DNA of 53,873 nucleotides from the NCBI GenBank assembly GCA_964644375.1, contig CAZXWJ010000002.1:1-53873 (forward strand). The letters run 5' to 3'. Each line of letters begins with the position of its first letter. The stretch's first letter is position 1. A model generated the notes under the pieces. That model did no database searches and was not told the origin of the DNA. It worked only from the letters and a program-made list of their open reading frames with translations. This DNA comes from an uncultured Desulfobacteraceae bacterium. Lineage in GTDB: Bacteria; Desulfobacterota; DSM-4660; Desulfatiglandales; HGW-15. Made by a program: the position numbers and the translations under genes. This document shows positions 15,096 through 40,621 of the stretch, piece by piece.

Positions 15096-16358
15096 ATGGC
15101 GATGAAAAGGGAAAGAGTCCTCATTACGGGATGCGGGGGAATGCTCGGCAACGCATTATACCCATATTTCGAGTCCTGGTATGATCATGTCTTGGCCACG
15201 GATAAAACAATCGACGAAGAATGGCTGGGCATGCTGGATATAAGAGAAGATGATAAGCTCTTTGAGCTTTTTCGCGAATACAAGCCGGATATTGTGCTGC
15301 ATCTGGCCGCTGAAACGGACCTGGAATTCTGTGAAACCCATCCAGATAAGGCCAGGGAAACCAATGAAAATGCAACCAAAAACATTGCCAAGCTTTCGGA
15401 AGAATATGGTGCCACGCTCGTCTATATCAGCACCGCCGGTGTTTTCAATGGTAAAAAAAGTGAGTTTTATACCGAAGCAGATCCGCCGAATCCTATCATG
15501 ATTTATGGAAAGACCAAATATGCCGGTGAAACGCATACCCTTGAACATTGTTCCAAATCATTCGTCGTCCGGGCCGGTTGGATGATGGGAGGAGGGAGAA
15601 GAAAAGAGAAAAAGTTTACTTACAAAATACTTCATCAGATCGTGGAAGGACGGAAGGAGATTTTTGCCGTCGTAGATAAATGGGGAACCCCCACATACAC
15701 ATATGATTTTGCAATCAATTTGTTTCTGCTTCTTGAAACCCGAAAATATGGACTTTATCACATGGTTTGTTCCGGAAAGGCTACCCGTTACGATGTCGCC
15801 GGGGAAATAATCCGCCTCTGTAATCGTCACGACATCCAACTCACCCCTGTCCATTCCGATTTCTTTTCCAAGGAATATTTCGCACCCCGGCCCGATTCCG
15901 AAATGATGATAAACCGCAACCTGAACACGCTGGGGATCAATCACATGCGGTCGTGGAAGGCTGCGCTATATGATTACATCAAGAATCAATTCCCCGATTA
16001 CATTGACGGAAAGAATGCATCGGATTCTCAAACTCCTCATATTCCCAGCCCCTATAACTTACACGACAACTCACCGGACTCGGAGCGACGGCGAGCGACT
16101 CGTCATACCTATCCTTCCACGGTTGAGTATGCGGTTTTAAACGGACAACCGGATCATTACGCAAAAAACCTTACCAAAGGCATCGTTATCGACATCAGTG
16201 ACTCGGGATTTTGTATGTATGTGTTTGATCAGCTTAAAATGGGCAAACATATCACCCTAAATAAGGGCGCGCTACCCACAAAACACAAACGCGCAACCGT
16301 TCAATGGGTCCGCCACGAGAGAAGTGGCGTATTCAGAGCCGGATGTACTTTTTCATAA
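15096..16358 (+). CDS. RmlD-like NAD(P)-dependent sugar-nucleotide reductase/epimerase fused to a C-terminal PilZ domain
   Basis: The N-terminal SDR part has 'VLITGCGGMLGNAL', 'YGKTKYAGE' (YxxxK) and an RmlD-type layout. The C-terminal ~95 aa carry both PilZ c-di-GMP signatures, 'RRRATR' (aa 331-336, RxxxR) and 'DISDSG' (aa 366-371, D/NxSxxG), followed by 'ATVQWVRHERSGVFRAGCTF'. Confidence 0.8.
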   Translation: MAMKRERVLITGCGGMLGNALYPYFESWYDHVLATDKTIDEEWLGMLDIREDDKLFELFREYKPDIVLHLAAETDLEFCETHPDKARETNENATKNIAKLSEEYGATLVYISTAGVFNGKKSEFYTEADPPNPIMIYGKTKYAGETHTLEHCSKSFVVRAGWMMGGGRRKEKKFTYKILHQIVEGRKEIFAVVDKWGTPTYTYDFAINLFLLLETRKYGLYHMVCSGKATRYDVAGEIIRLCNRHDIQLTPVHSDFFSKEYFAPRPDSEMMINRNLNTLGINHMRSWKAALYDYIKNQFPDYIDGKNASDSQTPHIPSPYNLHDNSPDSERRRATRHTYPSTVEYAVLNGQPDHYAKNLTKGIVIDISDSGFCMYVFDQLKMGKHITLNKGALPTKHKRATVQWVRHERSGVFRAGCTFS

Positions 16359-16439
16359 AAAATTTTCCTCTTATTATTAATAATACTTTCCGAAGAGAAA
16401 GATACGTCATGATGAGTTATAATCACGAGGAAACGATGG

Positions 16440-17981
16440 ATGAGAGTTTTATTCATTTACACTGATTTAAGTTCAGAAGTTGGATACTCGTCCGGCATCG
16501 GCATTCTGTCCGCCATTTTAAAAAAAAACGGCCACCAGACAAAGCTTATACATGTATCAGACGAAATCGGCTATCCATTGGACAATCTTCGAATCAACCG
16601 GGATATTCATAATTTTCAACCCGGCCTCATCTGTTTCTCCATTACCACCAACCATTGGTTTTCCTCCAGGCGAATCGGTATAAGTGTCCGACAAAACAGC
16701 AATACTCCCATCATCGTCGGGGGGCACCATCCCACGTCGGATCCAGAGCAGGTCATTCGGGAACCGTGGATTGACTTGCTTTGCCGCGGGGAAGGAGACA
16801 GGGCTTTGCCCGAAGTTGTCAGGCGCCTTGAGGCGGGAACACCTATGGACGGAATCCCCAACATCTTTCACAAACGAAATGGCCAAGTGTTTCGCGAACG
16901 TATCCTGGACTGGGTGGAGGACCTGGACACCCTGCCCGTTGAAGACCATGAGATCTTCAATTTTGGGAAAATCGTCGAAACGCGGAATGGATGGGCAGAG
17001 GTTATTGTGACCAGAGGCTGCCCATATCCCTGTAGCTATTGTTTCAACAAACCCCTGTTAAATGACTATAAAAGGACATTCGAGCAAATCGAAGGCCTGC
17101 ATTTCGACACAAAAAAATTTACGAACCGCAGGAGAAGCGTCGATGCGGTGATTTCAATGTTAAAGGGGATGAAAGAGGGCTATCCGAATATTGAACATTT
17201 CACTTTTGTTGACGATATCATGGCCCAAGACAGTCCTTGGTTCAGAAAATTTGCCGAACGTTATGCCGATGAAATCGGCCTTCCATACGCTTGTACTTCC
17301 CAGCCTCTGCTTTTCAACGAAAACCTGGCAAGGCTGCTCAAAGCATCAGGCTGCAAAGTGGTAAAGATGGGTATTGAGGCGGGAAATGAAAATATCAGAA
17401 GGACTGTGTTAAACCGACGAATAAGCAACGAGTACCTGGAAAAAGTCTTTCATATCGCAAGAGAATTCGACCTCAAACCACAGGCCTTCAACATGATCGG
17501 CATTCCCGGCGAAACTTTCAAAAACATGATGGAAACGGTGCGCCTTAACGCCCTGCTCAGGCCTTATATCGTATGGCTTTCGACCTTTAATCCATACCCC
17601 GGTACGGAACTTTACAAAAAGTGTCTTGAAAAAAACATGATAAATCAATCGAAAATCGATTCTGTTGAATCCTATCGAGAGGATTCGGTATTGAAGGATG
17701 AATTTCTTCCTCCCCTTGAGTTTAAAAAAATACGCGTGATGTTCCGTTGGCATCTGAATGCCTTTCTCGCCAATGGCGCGGAGAAAGTCTATAGGGAAAA
17801 CATAAGAGAGATTGATGGATTATCAGACGACCACTGGCGCAATGGAGAGGCGGAAAAAATATTTCTTGAGCGCGACAGAGAATTGGATCGTCATTTCAGG
17901 CACCGTTTGATCGATCATTATATCAGAAAGAAATATATCAATATCCTTTGGGGAGAACTTTACAATTATGACTTGACCTAA
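16440..17981 (+). CDS. B12-binding-domain radical SAM protein (class B), copy 1
   Basis: The N-terminal Rossmann-like cobalamin domain shows 'ICFSITTNHW..PIIVGGHHPT'. The radical SAM cluster motif is 'RGCPYPCSYC' (CxxxCxxC), followed by 'VKMGIEAGNENIRRTVLNR'. Confidence 0.85.
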   Translation: MRVLFIYTDLSSEVGYSSGIGILSAILKKNGHQTKLIHVSDEIGYPLDNLRINRDIHNFQPGLICFSITTNHWFSSRRIGISVRQNSNTPIIVGGHHPTSDPEQVIREPWIDLLCRGEGDRALPEVVRRLEAGTPMDGIPNIFHKRNGQVFRERILDWVEDLDTLPVEDHEIFNFGKIVETRNGWAEVIVTRGCPYPCSYCFNKPLLNDYKRTFEQIEGLHFDTKKFTNRRRSVDAVISMLKGMKEGYPNIEHFTFVDDIMAQDSPWFRKFAERYADEIGLPYACTSQPLLFNENLARLLKASGCKVVKMGIEAGNENIRRTVLNRRISNEYLEKVFHIAREFDLKPQAFNMIGIPGETFKNMMETVRLNALLRPYIVWLSTFNPYPGTELYKKCLEKNMINQSKIDSVESYREDSVLKDEFLPPLEFKKIRVMFRWHLNAFLANGAEKVYRENIREIDGLSDDHWRNGEAEKIFLERDRELDRHFRHRLIDHYIRKKYINILWGELYNYDLT

Positions 17982-18031
17982 ATCCGATTTTTTAATGTGC
18001 ACGTGAATGATACGAGGGGCCAATTTGAAGC

Positions 18032-19975
18032 ATGCTTTCCCATGAAATCGAAAAAAATCAGGATGTAATTAACATTCGAACGTATGTCGATATCCTTTTA
18101 AAGCAGAAAATGTTCATCATCGTATTTTGCCTTTCTGCTATGCTCTTTTCTCTGGGTATCACCTATTTCATTTCGGAAAAATATGAGACCGGTACTACGA
18201 TCTTTTATCGTCCTATCGAGATCAGCTTGATCAGGCAGAAAAGTACCGAGGCCTTCGGGGCGCCGGTACCTGCTCCGCCTTTTAAGGTGATTATCCAGAC
18301 TCTCCGGGATGCTGCAAAAAATGAGATCGTCCTTCGACCCGTGGTCAAGGCACTCCGACTGGACGAAGCATTGGAGATGGAATATGAAAGCCGGTATCAA
18401 CGCTGGTACTACGAGTCAAAGGACTACATAAAAACCAAAATTATAGATCTTTGGACGCTTCTCAAATATGGCAAGCTCATTGAAGAGGACCCTACCGTGG
18501 CCGCCATAATAAAACTGAGAAAAAATATGAATATCACCTCGACCAAAGACTCATACATCTACGTCCTCTCTGTCAGGGATAAATTCCCGAAAAGGGCGGC
18601 GATGATCGTCGATGCCGTTGGTGAAGGACTGGAAAATTTTCTAAAAGGGGAATATCAAAACCCGACCAAATGGAAATTGACACAGCTCACTGAACAGGTG
18701 ACAGCCAAACAACAAGAATTAAGTGAGCTTCGAGCACAACGCGAAGAGATATTTAAAGGGAATAGATTTATTTCCATACCGAATGAAACCTCAGAGGGAC
18801 TCTCCAACCTCTATGGTATGGAACTTGAGGAAATCAATCTTTCCGTTCAAATTGAAAAGAAAAGAAAAAGCATCGCAGAACTGGAAGCAGAGCTTCGAAA
18901 AGGCGCGAAAGATTATGTTCAGTCGGAAGACTTCAAAAAGATGAAGTCCGACCGACTTTTTCAAGAAATCGAACTCAAGGGCCTGATAGCCGGTAGGCAA
19001 CATCTGAGAACTTCAATCGCAAGATTGAAAAGAGAACTACAGGAACTTCCGGCCCTGAAGACAAAGATGGACGAAGTGGAAACAAAGATCGGTTCAGCCA
19101 CTCGTGCTCACGAGCATGCCCGGGATCTGTGTACTGAATTGCTTACACAAGTGCTGACTTTTCAGGACGGTACCCAAATTCTTAACAAGGCCGTGGTGCC
19201 GGACAAGCCTGTTCAGCCCATCAAAGTTTACCATGTCGGTTTATCCCTGCTTCTGAGCCTTGGCATTTCAACTGCTTTGGCCTTTTTATTCGATTTTTTA
19301 AATATTCGGACCTTCGTTTCTACAAGATCATCGAAAGGTTTCACAAAAGGCCCCGACGGGTCGTCCCAATTGACTGGGGCGAATTTGAATCCGTCTCATA
19401 CAGAAAGGCTCCTTGAAGATCTTTCCAGACAACTGGATGCAAAAGGCGGCAGTCTCTTCCTGCGAAAAGAAAACCATCTCGAGCTTGCCCATTCCCTTGA
19501 TCGGGGCCATAAACCTGCGCTCATCCCCTTTCCGCTCAAATCTGACAGCATTTTTGAACACGCGTTGAGAAAAAGACAGCCGATCATTACGGATGATCTC
19601 ATCGGAAAAAAAGATGTGCGATTAAGCGGCCGCAAAGGCTATCAAAATGAATCGATGATTGCATTGCCCATGATAGATGCTTCAGGGGAAGTGGTTGCCA
19701 TGGTTTCGCTCCATAACAAAACATCATCCCCTTTCACCTATGACGATAAACAAAAAGCCTTGACCATTTGGCGCACATACCTGATGGGACATCAGAGCAT
19801 GAACGAGGAAGATCTTACCGAGATTTATGCACCATCTATGCGGCGCACAAAACTTCCCTCAAAAGGACGAAAACAATTCCGGCTTGCATCACTCCTTCTA
19901 TATTCGTCGATAGGGGTCTGCGGTGCCGTGTTGTCTGCCTTGGGCTACTATTTCCTCAACAAATTGGGGTATTGA
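18032..19975 (+). CDS. Polysaccharide co-polymerase (Wzz/GumC-type chain-length determinant) with a cytoplasmic GAF domain and no kinase domain
   Basis: The Wzz-like N-terminus is 'INIRTYVDILLKQKMFIIVFCLSAMLFSLGITYFI'. A long coiled-coil periplasmic region follows, then 'VVPDKPVQP' and TM2 (aa ~400-423). The GAF-like region (aa ~455-585) reads 'GGSLFLRKENHLELAHSL..QPIITDDL..ESMIALPMIDASGEVVAMVSLHNK..FTYDD'. A third TM lies at the C-terminus. There is no Walker A motif. Confidence 0.75.
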   Translation: MLSHEIEKNQDVINIRTYVDILLKQKMFIIVFCLSAMLFSLGITYFISEKYETGTTIFYRPIEISLIRQKSTEAFGAPVPAPPFKVIIQTLRDAAKNEIVLRPVVKALRLDEALEMEYESRYQRWYYESKDYIKTKIIDLWTLLKYGKLIEEDPTVAAIIKLRKNMNITSTKDSYIYVLSVRDKFPKRAAMIVDAVGEGLENFLKGEYQNPTKWKLTQLTEQVTAKQQELSELRAQREEIFKGNRFISIPNETSEGLSNLYGMELEEINLSVQIEKKRKSIAELEAELRKGAKDYVQSEDFKKMKSDRLFQEIELKGLIAGRQHLRTSIARLKRELQELPALKTKMDEVETKIGSATRAHEHARDLCTELLTQVLTFQDGTQILNKAVVPDKPVQPIKVYHVGLSLLLSLGISTALAFLFDFLNIRTFVSTRSSKGFTKGPDGSSQLTGANLNPSHTERLLEDLSRQLDAKGGSLFLRKENHLELAHSLDRGHKPALIPFPLKSDSIFEHALRKRQPIITDDLIGKKDVRLSGRKGYQNESMIALPMIDASGEVVAMVSLHNKTSSPFTYDDKQKALTIWRTYLMGHQSMNEEDLTEIYAPSMRRTKLPSKGRKQFRLASLLLYSSIGVCGAVLSALGYYFLNKLGY

Positions 19976-20090: not shown

Positions 20091-21065
20091 ATGAACCAGA
20101 AGAACGTCAAGGGCATTATTCTGGCAGCGGGAAAGGGGACAAGGATGGCGCCATTCAGCAGCCGATATCCGAAACCCCTCTTGCCGATCTGCAACAAGCC
20201 TTTACTGCACTATCAAATTGAATCGATGAGAAATATCGGTATCGAAGAAATTATTATCGTGATCGGCCACCTCGGGTACGAAATTGCACAGACCTTTGGC
20301 GACGGGCGTCAGTATGGTGTTGCCCTCAAATACATCGAGCAAAGGGAAACCCTGGGCATCGCACATGCGGTCGGGAAGCTGGAGCCTCATATTTCCTCTC
20401 CCATCTTTCTCTTTCTTGGAGACATATTCTTTGTCACCGAGGATTTGTCAAGCATGAGAGAAATCATGCTGGAAAGAGAGGCATCCGCCGTGCTGGCCGT
20501 CAAACACGAAAAGGACGCCGAAGCCATCAAAAAAAATTTCGCCATCCGGCTGGACGACAAGGGCTTGGTAAAAAGAGTCGTCGAAAAGCCACGGCATCTC
20601 ACCAACAGCCTAAAAGGGTGCGGTTTGTATCTTTTTGACCAGCAGGTTTTCGACGCCATAAGGCGAACACCACGAACCGCCATGCGGGATGAATACGAAA
20701 TCACCGACACCATTCAAATCATGGTCGACGATGGGCTGCCCATTCATATCTCGCCAGTCGTTCGCTGGGACATGAACGTCACCGTCCCCGGAGATGTACT
20801 GGCCTGCAATCTTCACCAGCTGCAAAGGCTTGGCGAGAAAAATCTCATAGGCGATTCGGCCCAGATCCATCCAGGGGCGGAGATCACAAATTCGGTTGTC
20901 GGAAAGGGCGCAGTGATTCAGTATCCCATACACATTTCGAATTCCGTTATTTTCCCGAATACCCTTGTGGCCACCGGCCACGACGTCGAACAATTCATCA
21001 TGACACCGGAGCATCAGATCGATTGCCGGCAATTCAACGCAGAGGAATGGAATGGGACCCTATAA
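20091..21065 (+). CDS. Sugar-1-phosphate nucleotidylyltransferase (NDP-sugar pyrophosphorylase)
   Basis: The signature is 'GIILAAGKGTRMAPFSSRYPKPLLPICNKPLL'. The C-terminal hexapeptide-repeat-like segment is 'IGDSAQIHPGAEITNSVVGKGAVIQYPIHISNSVIF'. Confidence 0.85.
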   Translation: MNQKNVKGIILAAGKGTRMAPFSSRYPKPLLPICNKPLLHYQIESMRNIGIEEIIIVIGHLGYEIAQTFGDGRQYGVALKYIEQRETLGIAHAVGKLEPHISSPIFLFLGDIFFVTEDLSSMREIMLEREASAVLAVKHEKDAEAIKKNFAIRLDDKGLVKRVVEKPRHLTNSLKGCGLYLFDQQVFDAIRRTPRTAMRDEYEITDTIQIMVDDGLPIHISPVVRWDMNVTVPGDVLACNLHQLQRLGEKNLIGDSAQIHPGAEITNSVVGKGAVIQYPIHISNSVIFPNTLVATGHDVEQFIMTPEHQIDCRQFNAEEWNGTL

Positions 21066-21984
21066 CAAAGCACTGGTTACCGGGGGCGCCGGCTTTATTG
21101 GATCGCACCTGTCTAAAGCGCTTTTTTCGCAAGGGGTGGCAGTGGTTATTCTTGACGATCTTTCCATGGGAAAGATGGAAAATGTTCCGGCTGATGCTGC
21201 CTTTGTCCGGGGAGATGTCCGCTCTCAGGAAGATGTCTCCCGAGTGCTCGACGGTGTGGATATCGTATTCCACGAGGCTGCCCGGGTCAGCATTCGAACT
21301 TCCGTGAGGGAATTTTATGAGGATGCTCAAACAAATCTGATGGGAACACTCAATCTTTTGAGATGCTGCGCACAGAGTGATGTCAAAAAAGTCATATTCG
21401 CCTCATCGATGGCCGTTTATTCGGATGGCGATGCCTCGTCTAGAATAACAGAGGATTATCTCACGGAACCCATATCGCCTTACGGTATCTCAAAACTGGC
21501 AAGCGAAAAGTACTGTCTTCATTTTTCGAGGGAAACCGGCATCTCATGCAACGTGCTGCGATATTTCAACACCTACGGTCCTGGTCAGGCTTTCACCCCT
21601 TATGTCGGTGTCATTACCATTTTCATCAACCGGCTTTTAAAGAAAAAAAGTCCCGTGATCTTCGGCGATGGCAAACAGCGTCGTGATTTTGTGCATGTGA
21701 GCGACATTGTTTCAGCCAACATCCTATCCATGCAGGCTGATCTTCCCATCGGGATTCTAAATGTTGGCACCGGGAGAGGCACATCTGTCTACGAAATCGC
21801 AGAGATGCTCTGTCATGAGATCGCGCCGGACGTTCGTCCCGTCTATGCCGCTTCTCAGCCCGGGGAATTGAGATATTCGGTGGCCGATATCGGAAGGGCT
21901 GAAAAGGCCTTAGGGTACGGACCCAGCGCGTCGTTACAGCGGAAAATGGCCGAAGTCATTGAATATCTAAAGAAAAAAAAGTGA
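21052..21984 (+). CDS. NAD-dependent epimerase/dehydratase (GalE/UDP-sugar 4-epimerase-like SDR)
   Basis: Motifs are 'ALVTGGAGFIGSHL', 'ASSMAVY' and 'SPYGISKLASE' (YxxxK). It overlaps the upstream gene by 14 nt. Confidence 0.85.
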   Translation: MGPYNKALVTGGAGFIGSHLSKALFSQGVAVVILDDLSMGKMENVPADAAFVRGDVRSQEDVSRVLDGVDIVFHEAARVSIRTSVREFYEDAQTNLMGTLNLLRCCAQSDVKKVIFASSMAVYSDGDASSRITEDYLTEPISPYGISKLASEKYCLHFSRETGISCNVLRYFNTYGPGQAFTPYVGVITIFINRLLKKKSPVIFGDGKQRRDFVHVSDIVSANILSMQADLPIGILNVGTGRGTSVYEIAEMLCHEIAPDVRPVYAASQPGELRYSVADIGRAEKALGYGPSASLQRKMAEVIEYLKKKK

Positions 21985-34614: not shown

Positions 34615-36201
34615 ATGGCAACGATATCTCCAAATCCGACCACCGAATCGCTCCTGAGGGAGTCAAATCATATCTCAGGCCTGGCCTCCGTTGAAAAAGA
34701 ACTGGTGGGCGTCGCCGGTGGAGCGGCCGTTAATTTCATCGGGAAAATCCTGGGGACCGGCATCTTGTATCTTTATTCCGTTGTTGTCGCCAGGATGTTG
34801 GGGCCCCAGATTTTCGGCCTGTTCATACTGGGGCTGACGATCATCAATCTTGCCGGAATATTATGCCGGCTGGGGTTGGACAACGGTATTATTAAATTTG
34901 CGGCTCAATACCAGGGCATCGGCGATAAGGCCCGGATGAAAGGCGCCCTGAACGATGCCTTGAAGTATTCCTTCGTTATCTCCATTGCCGTGGGTGGTCT
35001 GTTGTGCCTTTTTGCAGAACCCGTCATTTCTCATGGCCTCGGCAAACCCGACCTGGTCAATATCGTGAGATTATTGTCGGTTTCCCTGCCTTTTACTTCT
35101 CTCCTTTTCATCGCCCTAGGATTCACCATGGGGTTGAAAATCATGAAATACTGGGTTTATGTTCAAAACCTGTTTTGGCCCTTGTCAAATCTTCTCCTTG
35201 CCGTGTTATTTTTATACCTGGGGTTCCATATTTACGGAGTGGTCGCAGCCCAAGTGGTTTCGATCATCTCAGCCTCCCTTCTTGCCCTCTATTGCGTCCG
35301 ACGGGCCTTTCCGGAAATCGTTTCGGCGCCGTCCATCCCGGAGACGCGAAGGCTTTTTGAGGTATCCTTTCCACTGTCCTTGACGGTTTTTTTGAATTTT
35401 ATCGCCTCCTGGACCGATACTTTGATGCTGGGGTACTTCAACGCTTCGGAAGAGGTCGGCATTTATGCCGCAGCCATGAAGACCGCTCTGCTCACGAGCG
35501 TCTTCTTGCTATCCTTCAATATCATATTTGCACCCACCATTTCCGACCTATACCATAAAGAAGAAACTCAAAAGCTGGAGAACATGCTCAAGATCATTAC
35601 CCGGTGGGTGTTTACCATCAGCCTGGTCGTGTTTATAGGTATTTCGTTGCGTGCAAGAACCATCACGGGCTTGTTTGGTCCCGAGTTCGTTGCGGGTTCC
35701 GGTTGTCTCATTTTACTTTCCCTGGCCCAGGTTGCTAACGGGTTCGTGGGTCCGGTGGGCTTAATGCTTGCGATGACCGGACACCAAAAGCATCTGATGG
35801 CCACGACCCTTGGCACTTGCCTGTTGAATGTCACACTCAACGGCATCCTGATTCCGATGTACGGAATTCTGGGGGCGGCCGTTGCTACCGGCACCTCGCT
35901 GGTTGCACTCAACGCTGGCATGCTTTTTCAAGTTCATTTCTTATTAGGAATGCATCCCCACAATAAGAAGTTTGTTAAAATCATTTTTTTTGGTGTGATG
36001 ACATATGGCGTGATGTATGGCGTTGATTGCCTGTTCCCCGGACTGGATACAGGGTTGGGCCTTATGGGCTGGGGTGCCGCTTTGCTTCTCCTGTATGCGG
36101 GAATGATTGCCTGGTTTGGGTTTTATGAGGAGGATCGGTTTATTTTTGCGACGCTCAAACAGAACATTTTGAATCACATGTCTCAGCAAAGAGGACGATA
36201 G
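34615..36201 (+). CDS. Oligosaccharide flippase (Wzx-like, MOP superfamily polysaccharide biosynthesis protein)
   Basis: The 528-aa product is hydrophobic throughout, with about 14 helices. It has the typical N-terminus 'GVAGGAAVNFIGKILGTGILYLYSVVVARMLGPQIFGLF'. The ATG directly abuts the upstream stop. Confidence 0.8.
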   Translation: MATISPNPTTESLLRESNHISGLASVEKELVGVAGGAAVNFIGKILGTGILYLYSVVVARMLGPQIFGLFILGLTIINLAGILCRLGLDNGIIKFAAQYQGIGDKARMKGALNDALKYSFVISIAVGGLLCLFAEPVISHGLGKPDLVNIVRLLSVSLPFTSLLFIALGFTMGLKIMKYWVYVQNLFWPLSNLLLAVLFLYLGFHIYGVVAAQVVSIISASLLALYCVRRAFPEIVSAPSIPETRRLFEVSFPLSLTVFLNFIASWTDTLMLGYFNASEEVGIYAAAMKTALLTSVFLLSFNIIFAPTISDLYHKEETQKLENMLKIITRWVFTISLVVFIGISLRARTITGLFGPEFVAGSGCLILLSLAQVANGFVGPVGLMLAMTGHQKHLMATTLGTCLLNVTLNGILIPMYGILGAAVATGTSLVALNAGMLFQVHFLLGMHPHNKKFVKIIFFGVMTYGVMYGVDCLFPGLDTGLGLMGWGAALLLLYAGMIAWFGFYEEDRFIFATLKQNILNHMSQQRGR

Positions 36202-36203
36202 CT

Positions 36204-37820
36204 ATGAAAGTGATTATTCTGGGCTTGGACGGAATGACAATGCGAATTGTCAAGCCATATGTGGATGCTCATTTGCTGCCAAATTTTCAAAAGGTCATGG
36301 CCGAAGGCTTTCATGGCCGACTGCGGTCGACCATTCCACCCGTGACAGGGCCGGGTTGGGCGTCTCTTGCCACCGGCAAGGAACCCGGGAAGCACGGCAT
36401 TTTTGAATTTCGTAAAAGAGAAGGTTATACCTCTCGTTTTCTTACAAAAAACACCTCAATCCACGCCGAGCCTCTGTGGAACATTCTCAGCAGAAACGGA
36501 AGACAGGCCATCGTTATCAATGTTCCGATGACCTACCCCCCTGATGAGTTGAATGGCATTATGATTTCCGGTTTGATGACACCGGGCATTGAATCGCCGT
36601 TTACCTATCCGGCGGATATCAAGCGTGAAATATTCGAAATAATTCCGAATTACAAAATCGACATCGATGAAAAAATGTTTTTGATTTCGCGAGATAAAGA
36701 CCAATTTTTGAAAGCCATTAAGGATCTCACGAAAGATAGAAGACGATTGATGAACCATTTCATTGATCACAAGCCGTGGGATCTCTTTTTTGCCACTTTT
36801 GTCGGAGTTGACAGGATCCAGCACTTTTTCTGGGACGAGATCCTATCCAAGGCCCCAAACTGTGTCGCCTATTATCAATTACTCGATGACATCCTCGGCG
36901 ATATCTTAAAAAGAATGGACGAGGAAACGATGTTATTTGTCGTTTCGGATCATGGATTTACGGATGGTAGACGGGCATTCTGCATCAACAGCTTTTTCAG
37001 GGAAATGGGCTTAGCCACATTGAAATCACAATTCAATGCCCAAAAGAGGCTGGCGAAAATCGGGATGACGGGGGATTCCATCAAGGGCCTACTCCATAAA
37101 ATAGGTCTGATTCGTTTGAAAGAATGTTTGCCATTATGGGTTCTTAACCATTTAAAAAAATTCATACCCAATAAAAGCAGTATTGAAAATGAAATCGACT
37201 GGACACGAACGAAGGTGTTCTCACTGTTTGGGTACGGGTTGATCCATATCAATTTGGTGGGCAGGGAGCCCCAGGGTATCGTTACCAAAGATGAGTACAA
37301 AAATCTGTGCACCTTCATCAAAGAACGGCTCTTGGAAGTAGAAGACCCGGCAACGGGACGAAAGATTGTCCGGTCCGTTTTTCTGGGCAGTGAGATTTAC
37401 AATACGACCTATGGCCATGAGTTGCCCGATTTGATCATCCTCTGCCACGACGGTTTCTCTGTTGTGACCGAGTTCTGGAAAGACATCGTGACAGATACCA
37501 GATTCGGAAATCTGCAGATGACGGGCAATCATGATTTGGATGGTATTTGCATGGCCTATGGTAAATCGATTGAACCCACCGAGATGGATGCACAGATTTA
37601 TGATATTCTGCCGACCGTTCTCTATTCAATGGATATCGGGATCCCCGCTGATGTGGACGGAAGGGTTTTAACGGAAATCTTCTCCAAAGAATTTATCGCG
37701 AAAACAACCCTGCACATCAACAGGGAAAAATCCGACGGCTTATCGGGGAAAAACCGGTTGAGCAAACAAGAACGGGAAACCCTGGAGCAACAGTTGAAAA
37801 ATTTAGGGTATATGGCATGA
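36204..37820 (+). CDS. Alkaline-phosphatase-superfamily enzyme (type I phosphodiesterase/nucleotide pyrophosphatase family)
   Basis: The metal/nucleophile motifs are 'VIILGLDGMT', 'TIPPVTGPGWASLATGKEPGKHGIF' and 'LFVVSDHGFTDG', plus 'MTGNHDLDG'. Confidence 0.7.
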   Translation: MKVIILGLDGMTMRIVKPYVDAHLLPNFQKVMAEGFHGRLRSTIPPVTGPGWASLATGKEPGKHGIFEFRKREGYTSRFLTKNTSIHAEPLWNILSRNGRQAIVINVPMTYPPDELNGIMISGLMTPGIESPFTYPADIKREIFEIIPNYKIDIDEKMFLISRDKDQFLKAIKDLTKDRRRLMNHFIDHKPWDLFFATFVGVDRIQHFFWDEILSKAPNCVAYYQLLDDILGDILKRMDEETMLFVVSDHGFTDGRRAFCINSFFREMGLATLKSQFNAQKRLAKIGMTGDSIKGLLHKIGLIRLKECLPLWVLNHLKKFIPNKSSIENEIDWTRTKVFSLFGYGLIHINLVGREPQGIVTKDEYKNLCTFIKERLLEVEDPATGRKIVRSVFLGSEIYNTTYGHELPDLIILCHDGFSVVTEFWKDIVTDTRFGNLQMTGNHDLDGICMAYGKSIEPTEMDAQIYDILPTVLYSMDIGIPADVDGRVLTEIFSKEFIAKTTLHINREKSDGLSGKNRLSKQERETLEQQLKNLGYMA

Positions 37821-38737
37821 GGGTTATGGAGACCGGACATTCCAAGATATCTGTGTTGATCATCAGCTTCAATTGCTGGGAAGACCTGAATCACTGCATT
37901 CAAAGCCTATATGATACAGAGTTCCCTCTTTTTGAGATTATTGTTTTGGATAACGCGTCTGTTGACGGGACGGCTGAAAAAATCAGGAAAAAGCACCCCT
38001 CTATTCGGTATATTCAAAACGCCGTCAACAGAGGCCATGTGCGTGCCGTAAATCAGGGATTACGAATGGTACGCGGAGACCGGGTCCTTTTGCTGGATGC
38101 GGATACCGTCGTAGCGCGGGATTCCATAAGCATCCTCTCGGCTTTTCTGGACGGACACCCCCAAGTCTGGATGGTGGCACCGAAAACATATAATACCGAT
38201 GGCTCCGTCCAGGAGGGCAACAGAAGGTTTCCCAGGGCAATCAATGGCATTTTCGGGCGTCAGAGTTGGCTGACCCGACGCTTTCCAAAAAATCGATTTT
38301 CCGAACGGTACCTCGCCCGGGATTTTGCAAACAGGCAGAATCCCTACCCTGTCGAACAGGTCGGCGCATGCTGCATGCTGTTTCGCAAATCCATAGTTGA
38401 TGAAATCGGGGGTTGGGATGAAGAATATTTCGGTTATTTCGTGGACTCGGACTGGTGTAAAAAAATCCAGGTCCATGGTGGGCTGATTTACAGTGTTCCT
38501 GCGGCCACCATCATCCATCATGATCAAAACAAAGATTCGCGAAAAAAAAGCCCAGCACGAATCATCGAATTTCAAAAAGGCGCCTATCGTTTTTATTGCA
38601 AGTATTACACCCGCGGCATTTTGGACCCGCGAAGTATCGCTGCAGGTGGCCTTTTGTTCTTGCGAGCCGCGTTTCTCTTGACTCTCAATGCGGCCAAAAA
38701 ACCTGATGGTGCAAGAGAGGACCCACTCTCCAAATAA
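37817..38737 (+). CDS. Family 2 glycosyltransferase
   Basis: ATGA overlap with the upstream gene. Motifs are 'ISVLIISFNCWEDLNHCI..IIVLDNASVDGT', 'LLLDADT' and 'YFVDSDWCKKIQVHG'. Confidence 0.8.
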   Translation: MRVMETGHSKISVLIISFNCWEDLNHCIQSLYDTEFPLFEIIVLDNASVDGTAEKIRKKHPSIRYIQNAVNRGHVRAVNQGLRMVRGDRVLLLDADTVVARDSISILSAFLDGHPQVWMVAPKTYNTDGSVQEGNRRFPRAINGIFGRQSWLTRRFPKNRFSERYLARDFANRQNPYPVEQVGACCMLFRKSIVDEIGGWDEEYFGYFVDSDWCKKIQVHGGLIYSVPAATIIHHDQNKDSRKKSPARIIEFQKGAYRFYCKYYTRGILDPRSIAAGGLLFLRAAFLLTLNAAKKPDGAREDPLSK

Positions 38738-38790: not shown

Positions 38791-39411
38791 GTGATAACCG
38801 TGGCACCTTATCCTTATGATTCGAATATTCAGACTGGAATCGCCCATAGCGCCGTTACTATTGTTTCCGGACTGCCCCGATCAGGCACGTCAATGCTGAT
38901 GCAGATGTTGGATGCGGGCGGGATGCCGGTGGTTGTCGACCATGTTCGGCAACCGGACGCAGATAATCCCCATGGATATTATGAATATGAGCCTGTCAAG
39001 AATATCAAGAATGGGGACAGGTCCTGGCTGCACGATTGCCGGGGTAAAGCCGTAAAAATCGTTTCGCCCCTTCTGGAATACTTGCCGCACGACAACCACT
39101 ACCGCGTAATATTCATCAAGAGAAAAATTGCGGAGGTGCTGGCCTCGCAAAAAAAAATGGCGTCCCGACTGGGCGGGAAAGACATCGATGCCTCTGAGAT
39201 GGCTGAAATGTACGAAAAACATTTGAGATATATCATGACCTGGTTGTCGCAGCAACCGGACATGGAAACCATCTATATCCATCATATCGATATGATAAAA
39301 GACCCTTTCGGCCAGACACAAAGGATGAATCAATTTTTGGGACGACGGCTCGACGAGAGGAAGATGGTCCAAATGGTCGACCCGTCGCTCCACCGGCAGA
39401 AAAAGCCGTAA
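38791..39411 (+). CDS. Sulfotransferase-family protein
   Basis: The PAPS 5'-phosphosulfate loop is 'VSGLPRSGTSMLMQML'. The 3'-phosphate motif region is 'YRVIFIKRKIAEVLASQ'. The size (206 aa) fits small cytosolic bacterial sulfotransferases. GTG start. Confidence 0.7.
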   Translation: MITVAPYPYDSNIQTGIAHSAVTIVSGLPRSGTSMLMQMLDAGGMPVVVDHVRQPDADNPHGYYEYEPVKNIKNGDRSWLHDCRGKAVKIVSPLLEYLPHDNHYRVIFIKRKIAEVLASQKKMASRLGGKDIDASEMAEMYEKHLRYIMTWLSQQPDMETIYIHHIDMIKDPFGQTQRMNQFLGRRLDERKMVQMVDPSLHRQKKP

Positions 39412-39468
39412 AAATGTTATTTGATGACCGGGGAGGCCAGGGACAACTGCCCAGAATTCATCAAAAAA

Positions 39469-39513
39469 TTGACAAAACAACCATTTTCATATAAAGTTCA
39501 GTCATAATGACTG
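39469..39513 (+). promoter_or_regulatory. Sigma70-like promoter plus a perfect 15-bp palindrome upstream of the export gene
   Basis: TTGACA (39469-39474) is followed after N15 by TATAAA (39490-39495), or after N17 by TAAAGT. Immediately downstream is the palindrome CAGTCATAATGACTG (39499-39513). Confidence 0.3.
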
Positions 39514-39595
39514 TGAAAATATCATGAGGTCACCTGTGTCGACCCTTTAAACCGCCACATCCTGAGAACGGGGCCGTTCAGAAAGCGCACGATAT

Positions 39596-40621
39596 ATGCA
39601 AAAAACAATGAGGGTATCTGGAAAGTTCAAGACCGTCTTCTTCCATGTCAAGGCAGCAAAATATCTCATGCGTACATGCTTTTTTTCGATCATCCTGGCC
39701 GCCATGGGATGTCAAACCAGCCCCGGCCCGGCTTTGACATCTTCCGACATCTCGAACCTCAACGCCCGATCCACTCCAACCGATTATATACTCGGCTCGG
39801 GGGACGTTATTGAATTGAAATTTTTTTACAACGCCGCTCTGGATGATCAATTAACCATCGGTCCCGATGGGAAGATTTCCCCGCAACTCATCGGCGAAGT
39901 CAAAGCAGCAGGACTACCCCTGGCAGGACTCGATACCCTGCTCACTGAAAAATATTATAACGCACTTGGATACTCCAAAAAAACTTACACCCTTGGCATC
40001 GGGGATGTAATTGCGGTAAAATTTTTTTACAACAGTGAGCTTAACGACGAGGTGCCCATTCGCCCGGACGGAAAAATTTCTTTGAATCTCATCGACGATG
40101 TAAAAGCGGCGGGTCTGACCCCTGCCGAGCTGGATGCCCTGATAACCGAGAAGTACGCCTATCTTCTTAAAACGGAGAATGCCCCTGCCGTTACGGTGAT
40201 GGTAAAAGAATATAAGGTTCCCGAACTGTCCGTGACCCTGAGAGCATCGGCCTCACAGAAGGTTTATTTGGGGGGAGAGGTGGCCAAGCCCGGGATGATC
40301 ACTATACAGGGGACATTGAGAAGTCTGGATGCATTGATCCTTGCTGGTGGGGCGCTCAAGACCGCCCAGTTGAACAATGTCTTGCTGATCAGAAACAACG
40401 GTAGCCAAAAGCCGGATCCCCACATCATCGACCTCAACAAGATCATCTCCGGCGAGTTGATGGATGTCCGTCTCAAGCCCTATGATATCGTTTATGTGCC
40501 GAAGACCACCATCGAGCAGGTCGATCAATTTATGCAGCACATCTACCATATCATCCCGGTGAGTGCGCTATTCGGCGTGCAGTATGACCTGAACCGTGAT
40601 TCCACCATAAGGGTGGAGTAG
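39596..40621 (+). CDS. Outer-membrane polysaccharide export protein (Wza/OPX family) with a duplicated Poly_export domain
   Basis: The lipoprotein-like signal is 'FFSIILAAMGC'. Two Poly_export repeats are present: 'YILGSGDVIELKFFYN..GPDGKISPQLIGEVKAAGL' and 'YTLGIGDVIAVKFFYN..RPDGKISLNLIDDVKAAGL'. The SLBB segment is 'KVYLGGEVAKPGMITIQGTLRSLDALILAGG'. An alternative start lies at 39668. Confidence 0.8.
   Translation: MQKTMRVSGKFKTVFFHVKAAKYLMRTCFFSIILAAMGCQTSPGPALTSSDISNLNARSTPTDYILGSGDVIELKFFYNAALDDQLTIGPDGKISPQLIGEVKAAGLPLAGLDTLLTEKYYNALGYSKKTYTLGIGDVIAVKFFYNSELNDEVPIRPDGKISLNLIDDVKAAGLTPAELDALITEKYAYLLKTENAPAVTVMVKEYKVPELSVTLRASASQKVYLGGEVAKPGMITIQGTLRSLDALILAGGALKTAQLNNVLLIRNNGSQKPDPHIIDLNKIISGELMDVRLKPYDIVYVPKTTIEQVDQFMQHIYHIIPVSALFGVQYDLNRDSTIRVE

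What the first reader, a model, noticed from the sequence alone, without database searches (positions are those of the whole stretch)
15096..40621. A 25.5-kb Wzx/Wzy polysaccharide locus with an unusually rich tailoring and signalling gene set
Twenty co-oriented genes, many tightly packed and several with ATGA or abutting junctions, encode a complete Wzx/Wzy pathway. The core comprises a phosphoglycosyl transferase, four GT2 enzymes, a Wzy-like polymerase, Wzx, a PCP and an OPX, together with NDP-sugar synthesis genes.

Added to this core are two class-B radical SAM enzymes, an FAD oxidoreductase, an alkaline-phosphatase-superfamily enzyme, a sulfotransferase, a secreted GH-A-like hydrolase and a TolB-like propeller. 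Two signalling fusions (PilZ and GAF) are also present. No BY-kinase or phosphatase, acetyltransferase or exosortase is present.

This combination predicts a sulfated polymer, possibly also C-methylated or phospho-decorated, whose output is controlled by small-molecule sensing rather than by tyrosine phosphorylation. I do not know of a characterised locus with this composition.
Basis: partly seen in the sequence, partly recalled or inferred. Interest (0 to 1): 0.7.

Follow-up and report, generated by a model that had tools for sequence, protein, structure and literature searches.

The report
Conserved sugar-polymer locus with built-in sensors
This is a real 20-gene locus for making and exporting a surface polysaccharide; it belongs to an unstudied locus family found in many uncultivated bacterial phyla, and here two core proteins carry sensor domains (a c-di-GMP-binding PilZ and a GAF) where better-known systems use a tyrosine kinase.

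Summary

The interpretation needs revision:
- **A shared family signature.** The "tailoring" set is largely shared by an uncharacterised locus family in MAGs of Planctomycetota, Nitrospirota, Desulfobacterota, anammox bacteria, Betaproteobacteria and others.
- **FAD enzyme.** It is a eukaryote-type UDP-galactopyranose-mutase homologue, so it predicts a furanose sugar rather than tailoring.
- **Radical SAM paralogues.** Their closest solved relative is AprD4, a sugar diol-dehydratase. In several family members one lies within about 260 bp of the RmlD-like reductase gene. C-methylation is therefore not specifically supported.
- **Sulfotransferase.** Its motifs are intact, but it is shared only with the closest related locus.
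- **PilZ.** The c-di-GMP-binding residues are the invariant positions across homologous fusions.
- **GAF.** It sits where Wzc carries its kinase, is a sensor-kinase subtype, and is rare on PCPs (about 5-6 representative clusters).

No kinase, exosortase or characterised equivalent was found. Verdict: a new variant of a known kind. All function is inferred from sequence.

The parts
15096..16358 (+). g01: RmlD-like SDR reductase (residues 1-300) fused to a C-terminal PilZ domain (about residues 326-420; RRATR ... DISDSG)
   Evidence: RmlD_sub_bind 217 bits; TIGR01214 scores 211 against a cutoff of 224. PilZ scores 20.6 bits when the domain is scanned alone, and 15 of 16 homologous domains hit PilZ. 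RxxxR and (D/N)xSxxG are the invariant columns.
16440..17981 (+). g02: radical SAM enzyme with an N-terminal B12-binding-type domain (CPYPCSYC cluster motif)
   Evidence: Pfam B12-binding + Radical_SAM. Best PDB hit is AprD4 6FD2, E 2e-14. 31% identical to g10. Orthologues at 49-62% identity in 6 of 18 related loci.
18032..19975 (+). g03: polysaccharide co-polymerase with TM1 25-49, a periplasmic helical domain, TM2 401-425, a cytoplasmic GAF domain (about 454-590) and a C-terminal TM helix 616-639
   Evidence: GAF_2 37 bits. Hydropathy. AF2 plus Foldseek match Wzc/WzzE/KpsE and GAF structures. Family alignment A1.
20091..21065 (+). g04: sugar-1-phosphate nucleotidylyltransferase with a short LbH tail
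   Evidence: NTP_transferase 117 bits. Hits to rmlA_long and Arch_glmU are below their cutoffs.
21052..21984 (+). g05: NDP-sugar 4-epimerase-type SDR
   Evidence: Epimerase 201 bits; GalE 182 bits against a cutoff of 262. By inspection of the sequence it has SMAVYSD where, from memory, RmlB-type dehydratases have TDEVYG.
22017..22913 (+). g06: small phosphoglycosyl transferase (initiating enzyme)
   Evidence: Bac_transf 185 bits; TIGR03025 235 bits against a cutoff of 296. Present in 17 of 18 related loci.
22932..24260 (+). g07: exported TolB-like beta-propeller protein
   Evidence: PD40 and TIGR02800 hits. N-terminal hydrophobic segment. Co-occurs with g09, and the two are fused in P0085.
24315..25073 (+). 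g08: Zn-ribbon class-I methyltransferase relic lacking the SAM-binding core
   Evidence: Alignment with intact homologues from L014, L004 and L005 shows an in-frame loss of about 95 residues including motif I.
25221..26309 (+). g09: exported clan GH-A-like glycoside hydrolase (likely start 25236)
   Evidence: No Pfam, NCBIfam or PDB sequence hit. AF2 pLDDT 88.6. Foldseek matches GH5_18 and PslG, E 3e-11 to 2e-9. Invariant Glu after strand 4 and at the end of strand 7.
26391..27833 (+). g10: second B12-domain radical SAM enzyme (likely start 26415; CPFACSYC)
   Evidence: Pfam. AprD4 E 1e-16; CysS 6e-7; TokK 1e-4. Orthologues at 56-67% identity in 7 of 18 loci.
28026..29342 (+). g11: eukaryote-type UDP-galactopyranose-mutase homologue (flavoenzyme)
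   Evidence: PDB 3UKA/3UTE/4DSG, E 3e-36, nearly full length. His loop, R182, W315, Y317, R327, Y419, R447 and Y453 equivalents are conserved; Y334 is Phe. Present in 17 of 18 loci.
29480..30943 (+). g12: GT2 glycosyltransferase with a 250-residue C-terminal extension
   Evidence: Glycos_transf_2 hit, plus weak rhamnosyltransferase and GlfT1 similarity.
31061..32548 (+). g13: Wzy-type polymerase
   Evidence: Wzy_C 57 bits. At least 10 hydrophobic segments. 41-62% identical orthologues in 10 of 18 loci.
32545..33615 (+). g14: GT2 (EpsD-like); start corrected from 32452
   Evidence: Pfam and NCBIfam EpsD 152 bits against a cutoff of 370. ATG at 32545 with a GAGGAGG upstream gives an ATGA overlap with Wzy.
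33622..34614 (+). g15: GT2 (EpsD-like)
34615..36201 (+). g16: Wzx flippase (MOP superfamily)
   Evidence: Polysacc_synt 101 bits.
36204..37820 (+). g17: cytoplasmic NPP-type alkaline-phosphatase-superfamily enzyme
   Evidence: Phosphodiest 156 bits. No TM segment. By inspection, LGLDG, PPVTGPG...TGxxPxxHG, DHG and GNHD match the NPP metal and nucleophile motifs as I recall them. Orthologues at 47-60% identity in 4 of 18 loci.
37817..38737 (+). g18: GT2
   Evidence: Present in 12 of 18 loci.
38791..39411 (+). g19: small cytoplasmic PAPS-type sulfotransferase
   Evidence: Sulfotransfer_3/_1 hits. PRSGTS and RKxxxxxxS are conserved with the L028 homologue (52% identity). Relatives elsewhere sit beside PAPS synthase and a CysQ-like gene.
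39596..40621 (+). g20: outer-membrane polysaccharide export protein (OPX, Wza-like), with two Poly_export stretches and an SLBB domain
   Evidence: Poly_export 118 bits. TIGR03027 scores 139 against a cutoff of 180.

Best explanation
The region is one functional Wzx/Wzy-dependent, OPX-exported exopolysaccharide or capsule locus. It is a member of a conserved, so far uncharacterised locus family spread over many bacterial phyla.

Shown by sequence and fold:
- All machinery is present: PGT, four GT2 enzymes, Wzx, Wzy, PCP and OPX.
- The family hallmark genes are an RmlD-like reductase, one or two B12-domain radical SAM enzymes, and a eukaryote-type UDP-galactopyranose-mutase homologue.

Inferred mechanism:
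1. g04 and g05 make NDP-hexoses.
2. g11 converts one of them to a furanose.
3. A radical SAM enzyme and the neighbouring reductase g01 jointly remodel a sugar. By analogy with AprD4/AprD3 this would be dehydration followed by reduction, that is deoxygenation. Methylation is the alternative.
4. g06 starts a repeat unit of about five sugars on undecaprenyl phosphate, and g12, g14, g15 and g18 extend it.
5. g19 sulfates the unit from PAPS on the cytoplasmic face. g17 performs an unknown phosphodiester or pyrophosphate step.
6. Wzx flips the unit, Wzy with the PCP polymerises it, and OPX exports it.
7. In the periplasm, the GH-A hydrolase g09 with the propeller g07 trims or proof-reads the polymer, as PslG and BcsZ do.

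Inferred control is post-translational at two points. c-di-GMP binds the PilZ domain fused to the reductase and gates precursor supply or docking of the enzyme. A sensor-kinase-type GAF domain occupies the cytoplasmic position that the BY-kinase domain has in Wzc, and modulates co-polymerase assembly in response to an unknown ligand.
For: Gene content and packing.

Conservation:
- The contig held as L002+L028 has the same set, including the sulfotransferase, AP enzyme, propeller and GH, at 49-70% identity in a different order.
- 21 GTDB genomes and further metagenome contigs share the core.
- Frequencies in 18 loci of at least 15 kb: RmlD-like 16, UGM-like 17, PGT 17, EpsD-like GT2 18, PCP 13, OPX 12, and at least one of the two B12-rSAM types in 12.

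Individual proteins:
- UGM homology with catalytic residues conserved.
- AprD4 is the best solved relative of both radical SAM enzymes. AprD4 works with the reductase AprD3 (PMC5461906).
- The RmlD-like gene lies less than 260 bp from a B12-rSAM gene in the window, L009, L010, L012, L014 and L023, and the two genes overlap in L110.
- GH-A fold with Glu after strand 4 and on strand 7, PslG among the top hits, and a GH-propeller fusion in P0085.

PilZ: RxxxR in 39 of 40 and (D/N)xSxxG in 31 of 40 fusion homologues. These positions are the only invariant columns apart from one Gly. 15 of 16 domains hit Pfam PilZ.

PCP-GAF: Wzc-like fold plus GAF fold, with a topology that puts the GAF in the cytoplasm after TM2. 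33 columns are at least 85% identical with GAFs of REC-GAF-PAS-HisKA kinases.

Sulfotransferase: PAPS-loop motifs are conserved, and relatives sit beside PAPS synthase and CysQ.

No BY-kinase was found in the window or among the 20 unexplained ORFs sampled from related loci.
Against: - Nothing is experimentally tested, and the organism is uncultivated and unnamed.
- No protein passes an NCBIfam equivalog cutoff, so substrates are unknown.
- The radical SAM N-terminal domains resemble cobalamin domains of true methylases (CysS, TokK), so methylation is not excluded.
- No 4,6-dehydratase or RmlC is present to feed a classical RmlD.
- The window's PilZ domain is below the Pfam gathering score.
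- The window's GAF has Arg where 97% of the subtype have Trp. GAF domains can be purely structural, as in PelD (from memory).
- GAF and PilZ are missing from most family members, so they are accessory.
- A BY-kinase, PAPS synthesis and diguanylate cyclases could lie elsewhere in the genome, or be absent.
- Intergenic gaps of 115-192 bp suggest several transcripts.
Confidence: 0.65

Rival explanations
1. The two class-B radical SAM enzymes are cobalamin-dependent C-methyltransferases that methylate sugars of the repeat unit, and the RmlD-like reductase is an ordinary 6-deoxyhexose pathway enzyme unrelated to them.
For: Both proteins have a Pfam B12-binding domain. Their N-terminal parts align with the cobalamin domains of the methylases CysS and TokK. 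Related loci also carry ordinary methyltransferases, so methylated sugars are a family theme. The Brocadiaceae locus L016 carries RmlC next to an NTP-transferase.
Against: The best solved relative of both radical SAM cores is the dehydratase AprD4. NCBIfam methylase models score far below their cutoffs. The tight, conserved adjacency to the reductase gene argues for a coupled pair. No RmlB or RmlC is present in the window.
Confidence: 0.3
2. The sensor domains are vestigial or purely structural. PilZ and GAF were acquired by domain shuffling and no longer sense anything. Output is controlled transcriptionally, or by a BY-kinase encoded elsewhere.
For: Most family members lack both domains and presumably still function. 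The window's GAF carries W534R at a near-invariant position. The window's PilZ is below the Pfam cutoff. A 1.57-kb non-coding leader upstream could host transcriptional control.
Against: The c-di-GMP-contacting residues are exactly the invariant ones across diverged fusions (25-45% domain identity). That is hard to explain without selection for binding. The GAF signature is conserved at 33 positions across PCP and kinase contexts. No kinase lies near any of the related loci examined.
Confidence: 0.2
3. The locus makes an O-antigen, an S-layer or protein-linked glycan, or a lipid-linked oligosaccharide rather than a secreted or capsular polymer. In that case the Wzy_C protein would be a ligase.
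For: Pfam Wzy_C also covers O-antigen ligases. Relatives occur in anammox bacteria, which from memory have glycosylated S-layers.
Against: A Wza-type OPX and a Wzc-like PCP are present and conserved with the locus. From established knowledge of group-1-type capsule and EPS export, these are needed for export of high-molecular-weight polymer, not for O-antigen or protein glycosylation. An in-locus periplasmic GH is typical of EPS systems.
Confidence: 0.1
4. The 25.5 kb is a chance juxtaposition of two or more unrelated clusters, for example a small-molecule sugar-modification cluster inserted into an EPS operon.
For: The block g06-g10 (PGT, propeller, MT relic, GH, rSAM) is inserted between PCP and UGM relative to the canonical order. 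In L028 the propeller-GH-rSAM block lies at the 3' end instead.
Against: The same gene set stays together despite rearrangement at 49-70% protein identity. GC content is uniform across the locus.
Confidence: 0.05

Closest known systems
Group-1-type Wzx/Wzy capsule and EPS systems with Wza and Wzc (E. coli K30, colanic acid)
   Same: Same overall logic and parts: PGT, GTs, Wzx, Wzy, PCP and OPX. The g03 model matches Wzc cryo-EM structures, and the OPX has Poly_export and SLBB domains.
   Different: The cytoplasmic BY-kinase domain of Wzc is replaced by a GAF domain followed by an extra C-terminal TM helix. There is no Wzb phosphatase.
Myxococcus xanthus EPS pathway (EpsZ, EpsD, EpsY) and XrtA/PEP-CTERM EPS systems
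   Same: The best NCBIfam matches of the GT2s (EpsD), OPX (TIGR03027, EpsY), PCP (TIGR03007) and PGT (TIGR03025) are to these systems.
   Different: All scores are far below the equivalog cutoffs. There is no exosortase. Neither system is known, to my knowledge, to include radical SAM, UGM-like or AP-family genes.
Synechan (xss) cluster of Synechocystis 6803, and wps-1 of Actinoplanes missouriensis
   Same: These are Wzx/Wzy clusters that carry sulfotransferase genes inside the cluster. Synechan is an experimentally shown sulfated EPS (PMC8205485; PMC13390465).
   Different: The sulfotransferases differ: no tblastn match of g19 to any plasmid in the plasmid collection at E<=1e-3 (whether pSYSM is in that collection was not checked). 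The organism is not a cyanobacterium. Synechan is controlled by the transcriptional system XssS/R/Q rather than by sensor domains fused to pathway proteins.
c-di-GMP receptors of synthase-dependent EPS machines (BcsA PilZ, Alg44 PilZ, PelD GAF + degenerate GGDEF)
   Same: A PilZ with RxxxR/(D/N)xSxxG is fused to a pathway protein. A GAF domain sits on an inner-membrane EPS component, as in PelD (PelD from memory, cited in PMC12802240).
   Different: Here the pathway is Wzx/Wzy-dependent, and post-translational regulation of that pathway type is described as 'incompletely understood' (PMC12802240). PilZ sits on a soluble nucleotide-sugar-type reductase rather than on the synthase. The GAF is not paired with a GGDEF domain.
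AprD4/AprD3 of apramycin biosynthesis
   Same: A radical SAM enzyme with an N-terminal B12-like domain plus an NAD(P)H reductase partner, acting on a sugar. AprD4 is the best solved relative of g02 and g10 (PMC5461906).
   Different: Similarity is remote (56-64 bits, core only). The context is a polysaccharide, not an aminoglycoside. g01 is RmlD-like, and no homology to AprD3 was tested.
PslG, BcsZ and AlgL-type periplasmic hydrolases or lyases encoded in EPS operons
   Same: g09 is an exported GH-A TIM barrel encoded inside the EPS locus. PslG is among the top structural matches.
   Different: There is no detectable sequence similarity to any CAZy-type Pfam family. It is partnered, and elsewhere fused, with a PD40 propeller.

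Membership tests
Wzx/Wzy-dependent polysaccharide pathway with OPX export | Initiating polyprenyl-phosphate phosphoglycosyl transferase | tested here: met
   Bac_transf 185 bits against a cutoff of 27.
Wzx/Wzy-dependent polysaccharide pathway with OPX export | Wzx flippase and Wzy polymerase | tested here: met
   Polysacc_synt 101 bits and Wzy_C 57 bits, both above their cutoffs. Both are polytopic.
Wzx/Wzy-dependent polysaccharide pathway with OPX export | PCP and OPX proteins | tested here: met
   OPX: Poly_export 118 bits. PCP: Wzz and GNVR are sub-threshold, but the fold matches Wzc/WzzE/KpsE and homologues carry PF02706/PF13807.
PCP-2a (Wzc-like) co-polymerases | C-terminal cytoplasmic BY-kinase domain (Walker A/A'/B, Tyr cluster) | tested here: not met
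   The region after TM2 is a GAF domain, and Pfam finds no P-loop family.
PilZ c-di-GMP receptor domains | RxxxR and (D/N)xSxxG motifs about 20-30 residues apart in a small beta-barrel domain | tested here: met
   The window has RRATR ... DISDSG. These are the invariant columns in 16 aligned fusion domains, and they occur in 39 of 40 and 31 of 40 homologues respectively.
PilZ c-di-GMP receptor domains | Match to Pfam PF07238 at the gathering score | tested here: inconclusive
   The window domain scores 20.6 bits against a cutoff of 22.5. 15 of 16 homologous domains match at E<=0.01, the best at 1e-9.
PilZ c-di-GMP receptor domains | Binding of c-di-GMP | not testable with these tools
   Needs ITC or DRaCALA on purified protein.
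UDP-galactopyranose mutase (eukaryote-type) | Full-length homology with the FAD-binding fold and the His-loop, Arg and Tyr active-site residues | tested here: met
   E 3e-36 to 3UKA over residues 7-412. H63, R182, W315, Y317, R327, Y419, R447 and Y453 equivalents are conserved; Y334 is Phe. Residue roles are from memory of the A. fumigatus UGM literature.
UDP-galactopyranose mutase (bacterial Glf, TIGR00031) | NCBIfam equivalog score | tested here: not met
   22.9 bits against a cutoff of 303.75. The best NCBIfam hit is the uncharacterised PRK07208 group, also below its cutoff.
Class B (cobalamin-dependent) radical SAM methyltransferases | N-terminal B12-binding domain plus a CxxxCxxC radical SAM core | tested here: met
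   Pfam hits are above their cutoffs for both proteins. The motifs CPYPCSYC and CPFACSYC are seen in the sequence.
Class B (cobalamin-dependent) radical SAM methyltransferases | Methyl transfer via methylcobalamin | not testable with these tools
   The nearest solved relative is AprD4, a non-methylating dehydratase. All methylase equivalogs score far below their cutoffs.
Clan GH-A glycoside hydrolases | (beta/alpha)8 barrel with catalytic Glu after strand 4 and on strand 7 | tested here: met
   AF2 pLDDT 88.6, with eight strands. Invariant E153 follows strand 4 (147-149) and invariant E257 ends strand 7 (253-258). Foldseek matches GH5, GH39, GH53 and GH2, E down to 3e-11. Activity is untested.
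XrtA/PEP-CTERM exosortase-associated EPS system | Exosortase gene, and TIGR03007/03027/03013 equivalogs at cutoff | tested here: not met
   No exosortase was found in the window. Scores are 48 against 279, 139 against 180 and 130 against 393. One relative (L111) has a PEP-CTERM protein upstream.
PAPS-dependent sulfotransferases | 5'-PSB loop (PxxGT/S) and 3'-PB motif (R...S), and a Pfam match | tested here: met
   Sulfotransfer_3 scores 45.8 and Sulfotransfer_1 scores 38.5, both above their cutoffs. PRSGTS and RKIAEVLAS are conserved with L028. Motif definitions are from memory. PAPS-synthase neighbours occur elsewhere.

The most novel reading that the evidence does not exclude
This locus family is a distinct, phylum-spanning class of Wzx/Wzy pathway with three features.
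1. A radical SAM enzyme and an RmlD-like reductase form an AprD4/AprD3-like pair that makes an unusual deoxy or rearranged sugar for a furanose-containing polymer.
2. c-di-GMP acts directly on the pathway through a PilZ domain on that reductase. This would be the first allosteric second-messenger checkpoint inside a Wzx/Wzy pathway.
3. A ligand-sensing GAF domain substitutes for the tyrosine-autokinase cycle in driving co-polymerase assembly.
Probability: 0.25. Interest if true: 0.8.

Novelty: new variant of a known kind. Interest (0 to 1): 0.6.

Why it matters
Wzx/Wzy pathways make most bacterial capsules, O-antigens and many biofilm polymers. Their post-translational control is described as 'incompletely understood' (PMC12802240), whereas c-di-GMP receptors are well known only for synthase-dependent systems.

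Two features here give concrete, testable handles on that gap: a reductase-PilZ fusion conserved in dozens of metagenomic lineages, and a co-polymerase that carries a sensor-type GAF where Wzc carries its kinase.

The family also occurs in organisms that dominate engineered and natural biofilms, including anammox Brocadiaceae/Scalindua, Propionivibrio, Nitrospirota and Desulfobacterota. Matrix polymers of such uncultivated organisms are, to my knowledge, poorly defined.

Radical SAM chemistry in a polysaccharide locus would be unusual, and so would an in-locus sulfotransferase outside the cyanobacteria (PMC8205485 regarded such genes as absent from other bacterial EPS clusters).

Tried and rejected
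- **Riboswitch or other RNA in the 1.57-kb upstream gap.** Rfam found nothing at gathering score over the window, or at E<=1 on 13400-15200. Promoter and terminator scans did not exceed shuffles there. Repeats were trivial.
- **tRNA.** ARAGORN found no tRNA or tmRNA gene in the window.
- **Naming the organism.** Cluster look-ups gave no names for the window proteins or the closest relatives. The source sample is only known as MUDA16-1_SAMN06140899.
- **Filing under a characterised system.** NCBIfam gave no equivalog at cutoff for any of the 20 proteins. XrtA/PEP-CTERM and M. xanthus EPS were rejected on score and missing parts.
- **Plasmid collection.** No match for g19 or g03.
- **Literature.** Searches for RmlD-PilZ, PCP-GAF, radical SAM + UGM + Wzy, radical SAM + Wzx/Wzy + sulfotransferase, and anammox + radical SAM + EPS returned nothing relevant.
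- **PilZ profile against PDB.** Only weak hits were found (YpfA at E 0.2, BcsA at about 0.9), so PilZ rests on Pfam and motifs.
- **g08 as a working methyltransferase.** Rejected.
- **g19 as a core family gene.** Rejected (1 of 18 loci). Its many metagenomic relatives are not in Wzx/Wzy loci.
- **g12 as the furanosyltransferase partner of g11.** Not supported. g12 is in 3 of 18 loci while g11 is in 17 of 18.

Full report

Yes. Twenty + strand ORFs run from 15096 to 40621. They are preceded by a 1.57-kb stretch without any ORF above 90 aa, and followed by genes on the other strand.

Packing is as described:
- ATGA overlaps at 32545 (Wzy/GT2, once the GT2 start is moved to the ATG behind a GAGGAGG) and at 37817 (AP/GT2).
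- TAAATG at 34614/34615, with gaps of 2 and 6 nt nearby.
- A 14-nt overlap at 21052.
- Six gaps of 115-192 nt, which suggest more than one transcript.

GC content is 45-50% throughout the locus.

Three calls that sequence alone left weak were tested further.
- *The PCP.* Wzz and GNVR hits were below threshold. Its AlphaFold model (pLDDT 78.5) has Wzc, WzzE and KpsE as best PDB matches (Foldseek E 5e-12 to 1e-5). Its C-terminal domain matches solved GAF domains.
- *The GH-A-like hydrolase.* It has no Pfam, NCBIfam or PDB sequence hit. It gives a confident model (pLDDT 88.6) of an eight-stranded barrel. Best matches are GH5_18, PslG (GH39), GH53 and GH2. Family-invariant glutamates fall after strand 4 and at the end of strand 7.
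- *The PilZ.* See section 4.

It has lost about 95 residues in frame, including the SAM-binding motif I, relative to intact homologues in related loci.

**2. What is it part of?**

Neighbourhoods of PCP-GAF homologues were examined. One scan of 185,579 species-representative genomes was run. The 20 window proteins were then compared by tblastn against all fetched loci. Together these show that the locus belongs to a conserved family.

Members are all MAGs or metagenome contigs, titled:
- Pirellulales and Planctomycetota
- Nitrospirota
- Krumholzibacteriia
- Desulfobacterales, Desulfocapsa and Thermodesulfobacteriota
- Brocadiaceae (one protein also named under Ca. Scalindua rubra)
- Betaproteobacteria (Propionivibrio, Rhodoferax, Usitatibacteraceae, Burkholderiaceae)
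- Acetobacterales

The usual gene order is OPX, RmlD-like, B12-rSAM, PCP, UGM-like, GT2, PGT, Wzy, GT2, (GT2 or MT), Wzx, (AP).

Counts below are for 18 loci of at least 15 kb, at thresholds of at least 35% identity and 50% coverage. They are lower bounds because only 10 kb on each side was fetched.

| Gene | Loci (of 18) |
|---|---|
| EpsD-like GT2 | 18 |
| UGM-like | 17 |
| PGT | 17 |
| RmlD-like | 16 |
| PCP | 13 |
| OPX | 12 |
| g18-type GT2 | 12 |
| At least one of the two B12-rSAM types | 12 |
| Wzy | 10 |
| NTP-transferase + epimerase | 7 |
| Wzx | 7 |
| Propeller | 5 |
| GH | 4 |
| AP | 4 |
| g12 | 3 |
| Sulfotransferase | 1 |
| g08 | 0 |

One contig (JBNKDS010000196.1, held as L002+L028) has the window's set at 49-70% identity in a different order. 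It lacks g08 and adds a second kind of radical SAM enzyme, rSAM-SPASM. The sulfotransferase, AP enzyme, propeller and GH are all included.

The 'tailoring' genes are largely the signature of the family.

No BY-kinase was seen among the 20 otherwise unexplained ORFs sampled from related loci. Those extras are GT2, GT4, rSAM-SPASM, methyltransferases, RmlC and an AlgX-like SGNH protein.

**3. Chemistry**

*FAD enzyme.* It aligns over nearly its full length with eukaryote-type UDP-galactopyranose mutases (3UKA, 3UTE, 4DSG; E 3e-36). The histidine loop is retained, together with the Arg, Trp and Tyr residues that, from memory of the A. fumigatus enzyme, line the active site; one Tyr is Phe. This points to a furanose precursor, not to a tailoring oxidation.

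*Radical SAM proteins.* The two are paralogues (31% identity). No NCBIfam model comes near its cutoff. In the PDB both are closest to AprD4 (E 1e-16 and 2e-14, core region), while their N-terminal parts align weakly with cobalamin domains of CysS and TokK.

AprD4 is a radical SAM sugar 1,2-diol dehydratase that works with the NADPH reductase AprD3 (PMC5461906). The RmlD-like reductase gene lies within 260 bp of a B12-rSAM gene in the window and at least five relatives, and the two genes overlap in L110. The window has no RmlB or RmlC. I therefore favour a coupled rSAM-reductase sugar remodelling step. This is inference, and methylation is not excluded.

*AP-superfamily protein.* It is cytoplasmic. 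By inspection it retains NPP-type metal and Thr-nucleophile motifs. Its role is unknown.

*Sulfotransferase.* It keeps the PAPS-loop motifs and is 52% identical to its counterpart in L028. Its family is very large in metagenomes, with at least 439 relatives. Elsewhere it sits not in Wzx/Wzy loci but beside large PF01663 proteins (17 of 33 loci), a PAPS synthase, a CysQ-like phosphatase and a sulfatase. That supports a genuine PAPS-dependent activity, and shows it is a recent add-on to this locus type.

*Repeat unit.* One PGT plus four GT2 enzymes suggest a repeat of about five sugars.

**4. The sensor domains**

*PilZ.* The window's C-terminal 95 residues carry RRATR and DISDSG. Results across homologues:
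- Among the 120 best homologues of g01, 40 are full-length fusions. RxxxR occurs in 39 of them and (D/N)xSxxG in 31.
- In an alignment of 16 such domains (17-44% identical to the window's) the only invariant columns are the two Arg, the Ser, the Gly and one further Gly.
- 15 of the 16 match Pfam PilZ. The window's copy scores 20.6 bits against a cutoff of 22.5.
- The two further fusion proteins that were looked up lie in the canonical locus.

*GAF.* It follows TM2 and is therefore cytoplasmic, where Wzc has its kinase. It is followed by a conserved extra TM helix.

A profile search of 1.84 billion representative proteins found only about 5-6 PCP+GAF representatives, against about 70 GAF-less PCPs of the same family in the top 150. 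In the genome scan, 1 of 21 hits had the GAF.

The GAF part alone matches REC-GAF-PAS-HisKA-HATPase hybrid kinases at 150-180 bits, and 33 columns are at least 85% identical across both contexts. It is therefore a signalling-type GAF of a sharply defined subtype with unknown ligand. The window copy has Arg where 97% of the subtype have Trp. Two relatives carry tandem GAFs.

Both domains are accessory to the family. Only the window and L002+L028 have both.

**5. Comparison with what is known**

The pathway works like a group-1-type Wzx/Wzy/Wza/Wzc system, but it fails the PCP-2a test because it has no kinase. Its nearest NCBIfam neighbours are the M. xanthus Eps proteins and XrtA/PEP-CTERM system proteins, all far below cutoff, and there is no exosortase.

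Sulfotransferases inside Wzx/Wzy clusters are documented for synechan and proposed for Actinoplanes wps-1 (PMC8205485, PMC13390465). g19 gave no match in the plasmid collection.

PilZ and GAF on EPS machinery are known from synthase-dependent systems: BcsA, Alg44 and PelD. For Wzx/Wzy pathways, post-translational control is described as incompletely understood (PMC12802240). I found no paper on RmlD-PilZ or PCP-GAF fusions, or on this locus type. The library lacks most subscription journals, so absence there is weak evidence.

**6. Verdict**

The locus is a new variant of a known kind of system and one member of an unstudied, widespread family. Its most interesting features are the two sensor-domain fusions and the conserved radical SAM/reductase/UGM-like trio. 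All functional statements are inferences from sequence, fold and gene context. Interest 0.6.

Noticed in passing
window 24315-25073 (+): A Zn-ribbon class-I methyltransferase homologue that has lost about 95 residues in frame, including SAM-binding motif I, relative to intact homologues in L014, L004 and L005. It is probably inactive, yet it remains an open frame.
   Followed up: yes
window 13527-15095: A 1.57-kb AT-rich (about 40% GC) stretch with no ORF above 90 aa lies directly upstream of the first gene of the locus. There is no Rfam match even at E<=1, no excess of promoter or terminator motifs, and only trivial repeats. It may be a long leader or regulatory region.
   Followed up: partly
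window 45198-53801 (-), and GC profile 44-53.8 kb: A 2867-aa GH94/glucoamylase-domain protein (cyclic beta-1,2-glucan-synthase-like) lies at about 60% GC, against 45-50% for the rest of the contig. It runs almost to the contig end. This could be foreign DNA or a chimeric assembly.
   Followed up: no
L031-L108 (e.g. L033 4252-11814; L107 7201-14931): Relatives of the g19 sulfotransferase (45-52% identity; at least 439 in metagenomes) recur next to one or two 670-760-aa PF01663 alkaline-phosphatase-family genes (17 of 33 loci of at least 6 kb). In places they also sit next to a PAPS synthase, a CysQ-like phosphatase or a sulfatase, and not in Wzx/Wzy loci. This looks like an uncharacterised sulfotransferase-PF01663 module.
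   Followed up: partly
P0085 / L029 43-1887: A 614-aa protein fuses a g09-like GH domain to a PD40 propeller. This supports a functional link between the window's g07 and g09.
   Followed up: partly
window 19391-19801 (GAF of g03); P0280-P0358: The GAF belongs to a sharply conserved subtype (GGSLFL...SLDPxHxP...FPL..GS.FE...SGWxGY...SLHNK) shared with REC-GAF-PAS-HisKA hybrid kinases. The window copy has R534 where 97% have Trp. P0003 and P0004 carry two tandem copies.
   Followed up: partly
L004 17609-18685; L007 16737-19430; L016 17375-18430; L028 11308-12396: Radical SAM-SPASM genes recur in related loci in addition to the B12-domain radical SAM genes. L007 has two in tandem.
   Followed up: no
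L111 7633-8322: A PEP-CTERM-domain protein (weak Pfam hit) lies just upstream of the OPX gene of a related locus. This hints at a link to exosortase systems in some family members.
   Followed up: no
L001 1531-2893 (ENA contig of the same sequence): In another public assembly of the same locus, the RmlD-PilZ gene is split by a frameshift into 190-, 238- and 53-aa calls. This is either an assembly error or strain variation.
   Followed up: no
L018, L019, L021, L023, L027: Betaproteobacterial members carry two diverged g09-like GH paralogues per locus (about 44% and 26-28% identity to g09).
   Followed up: no
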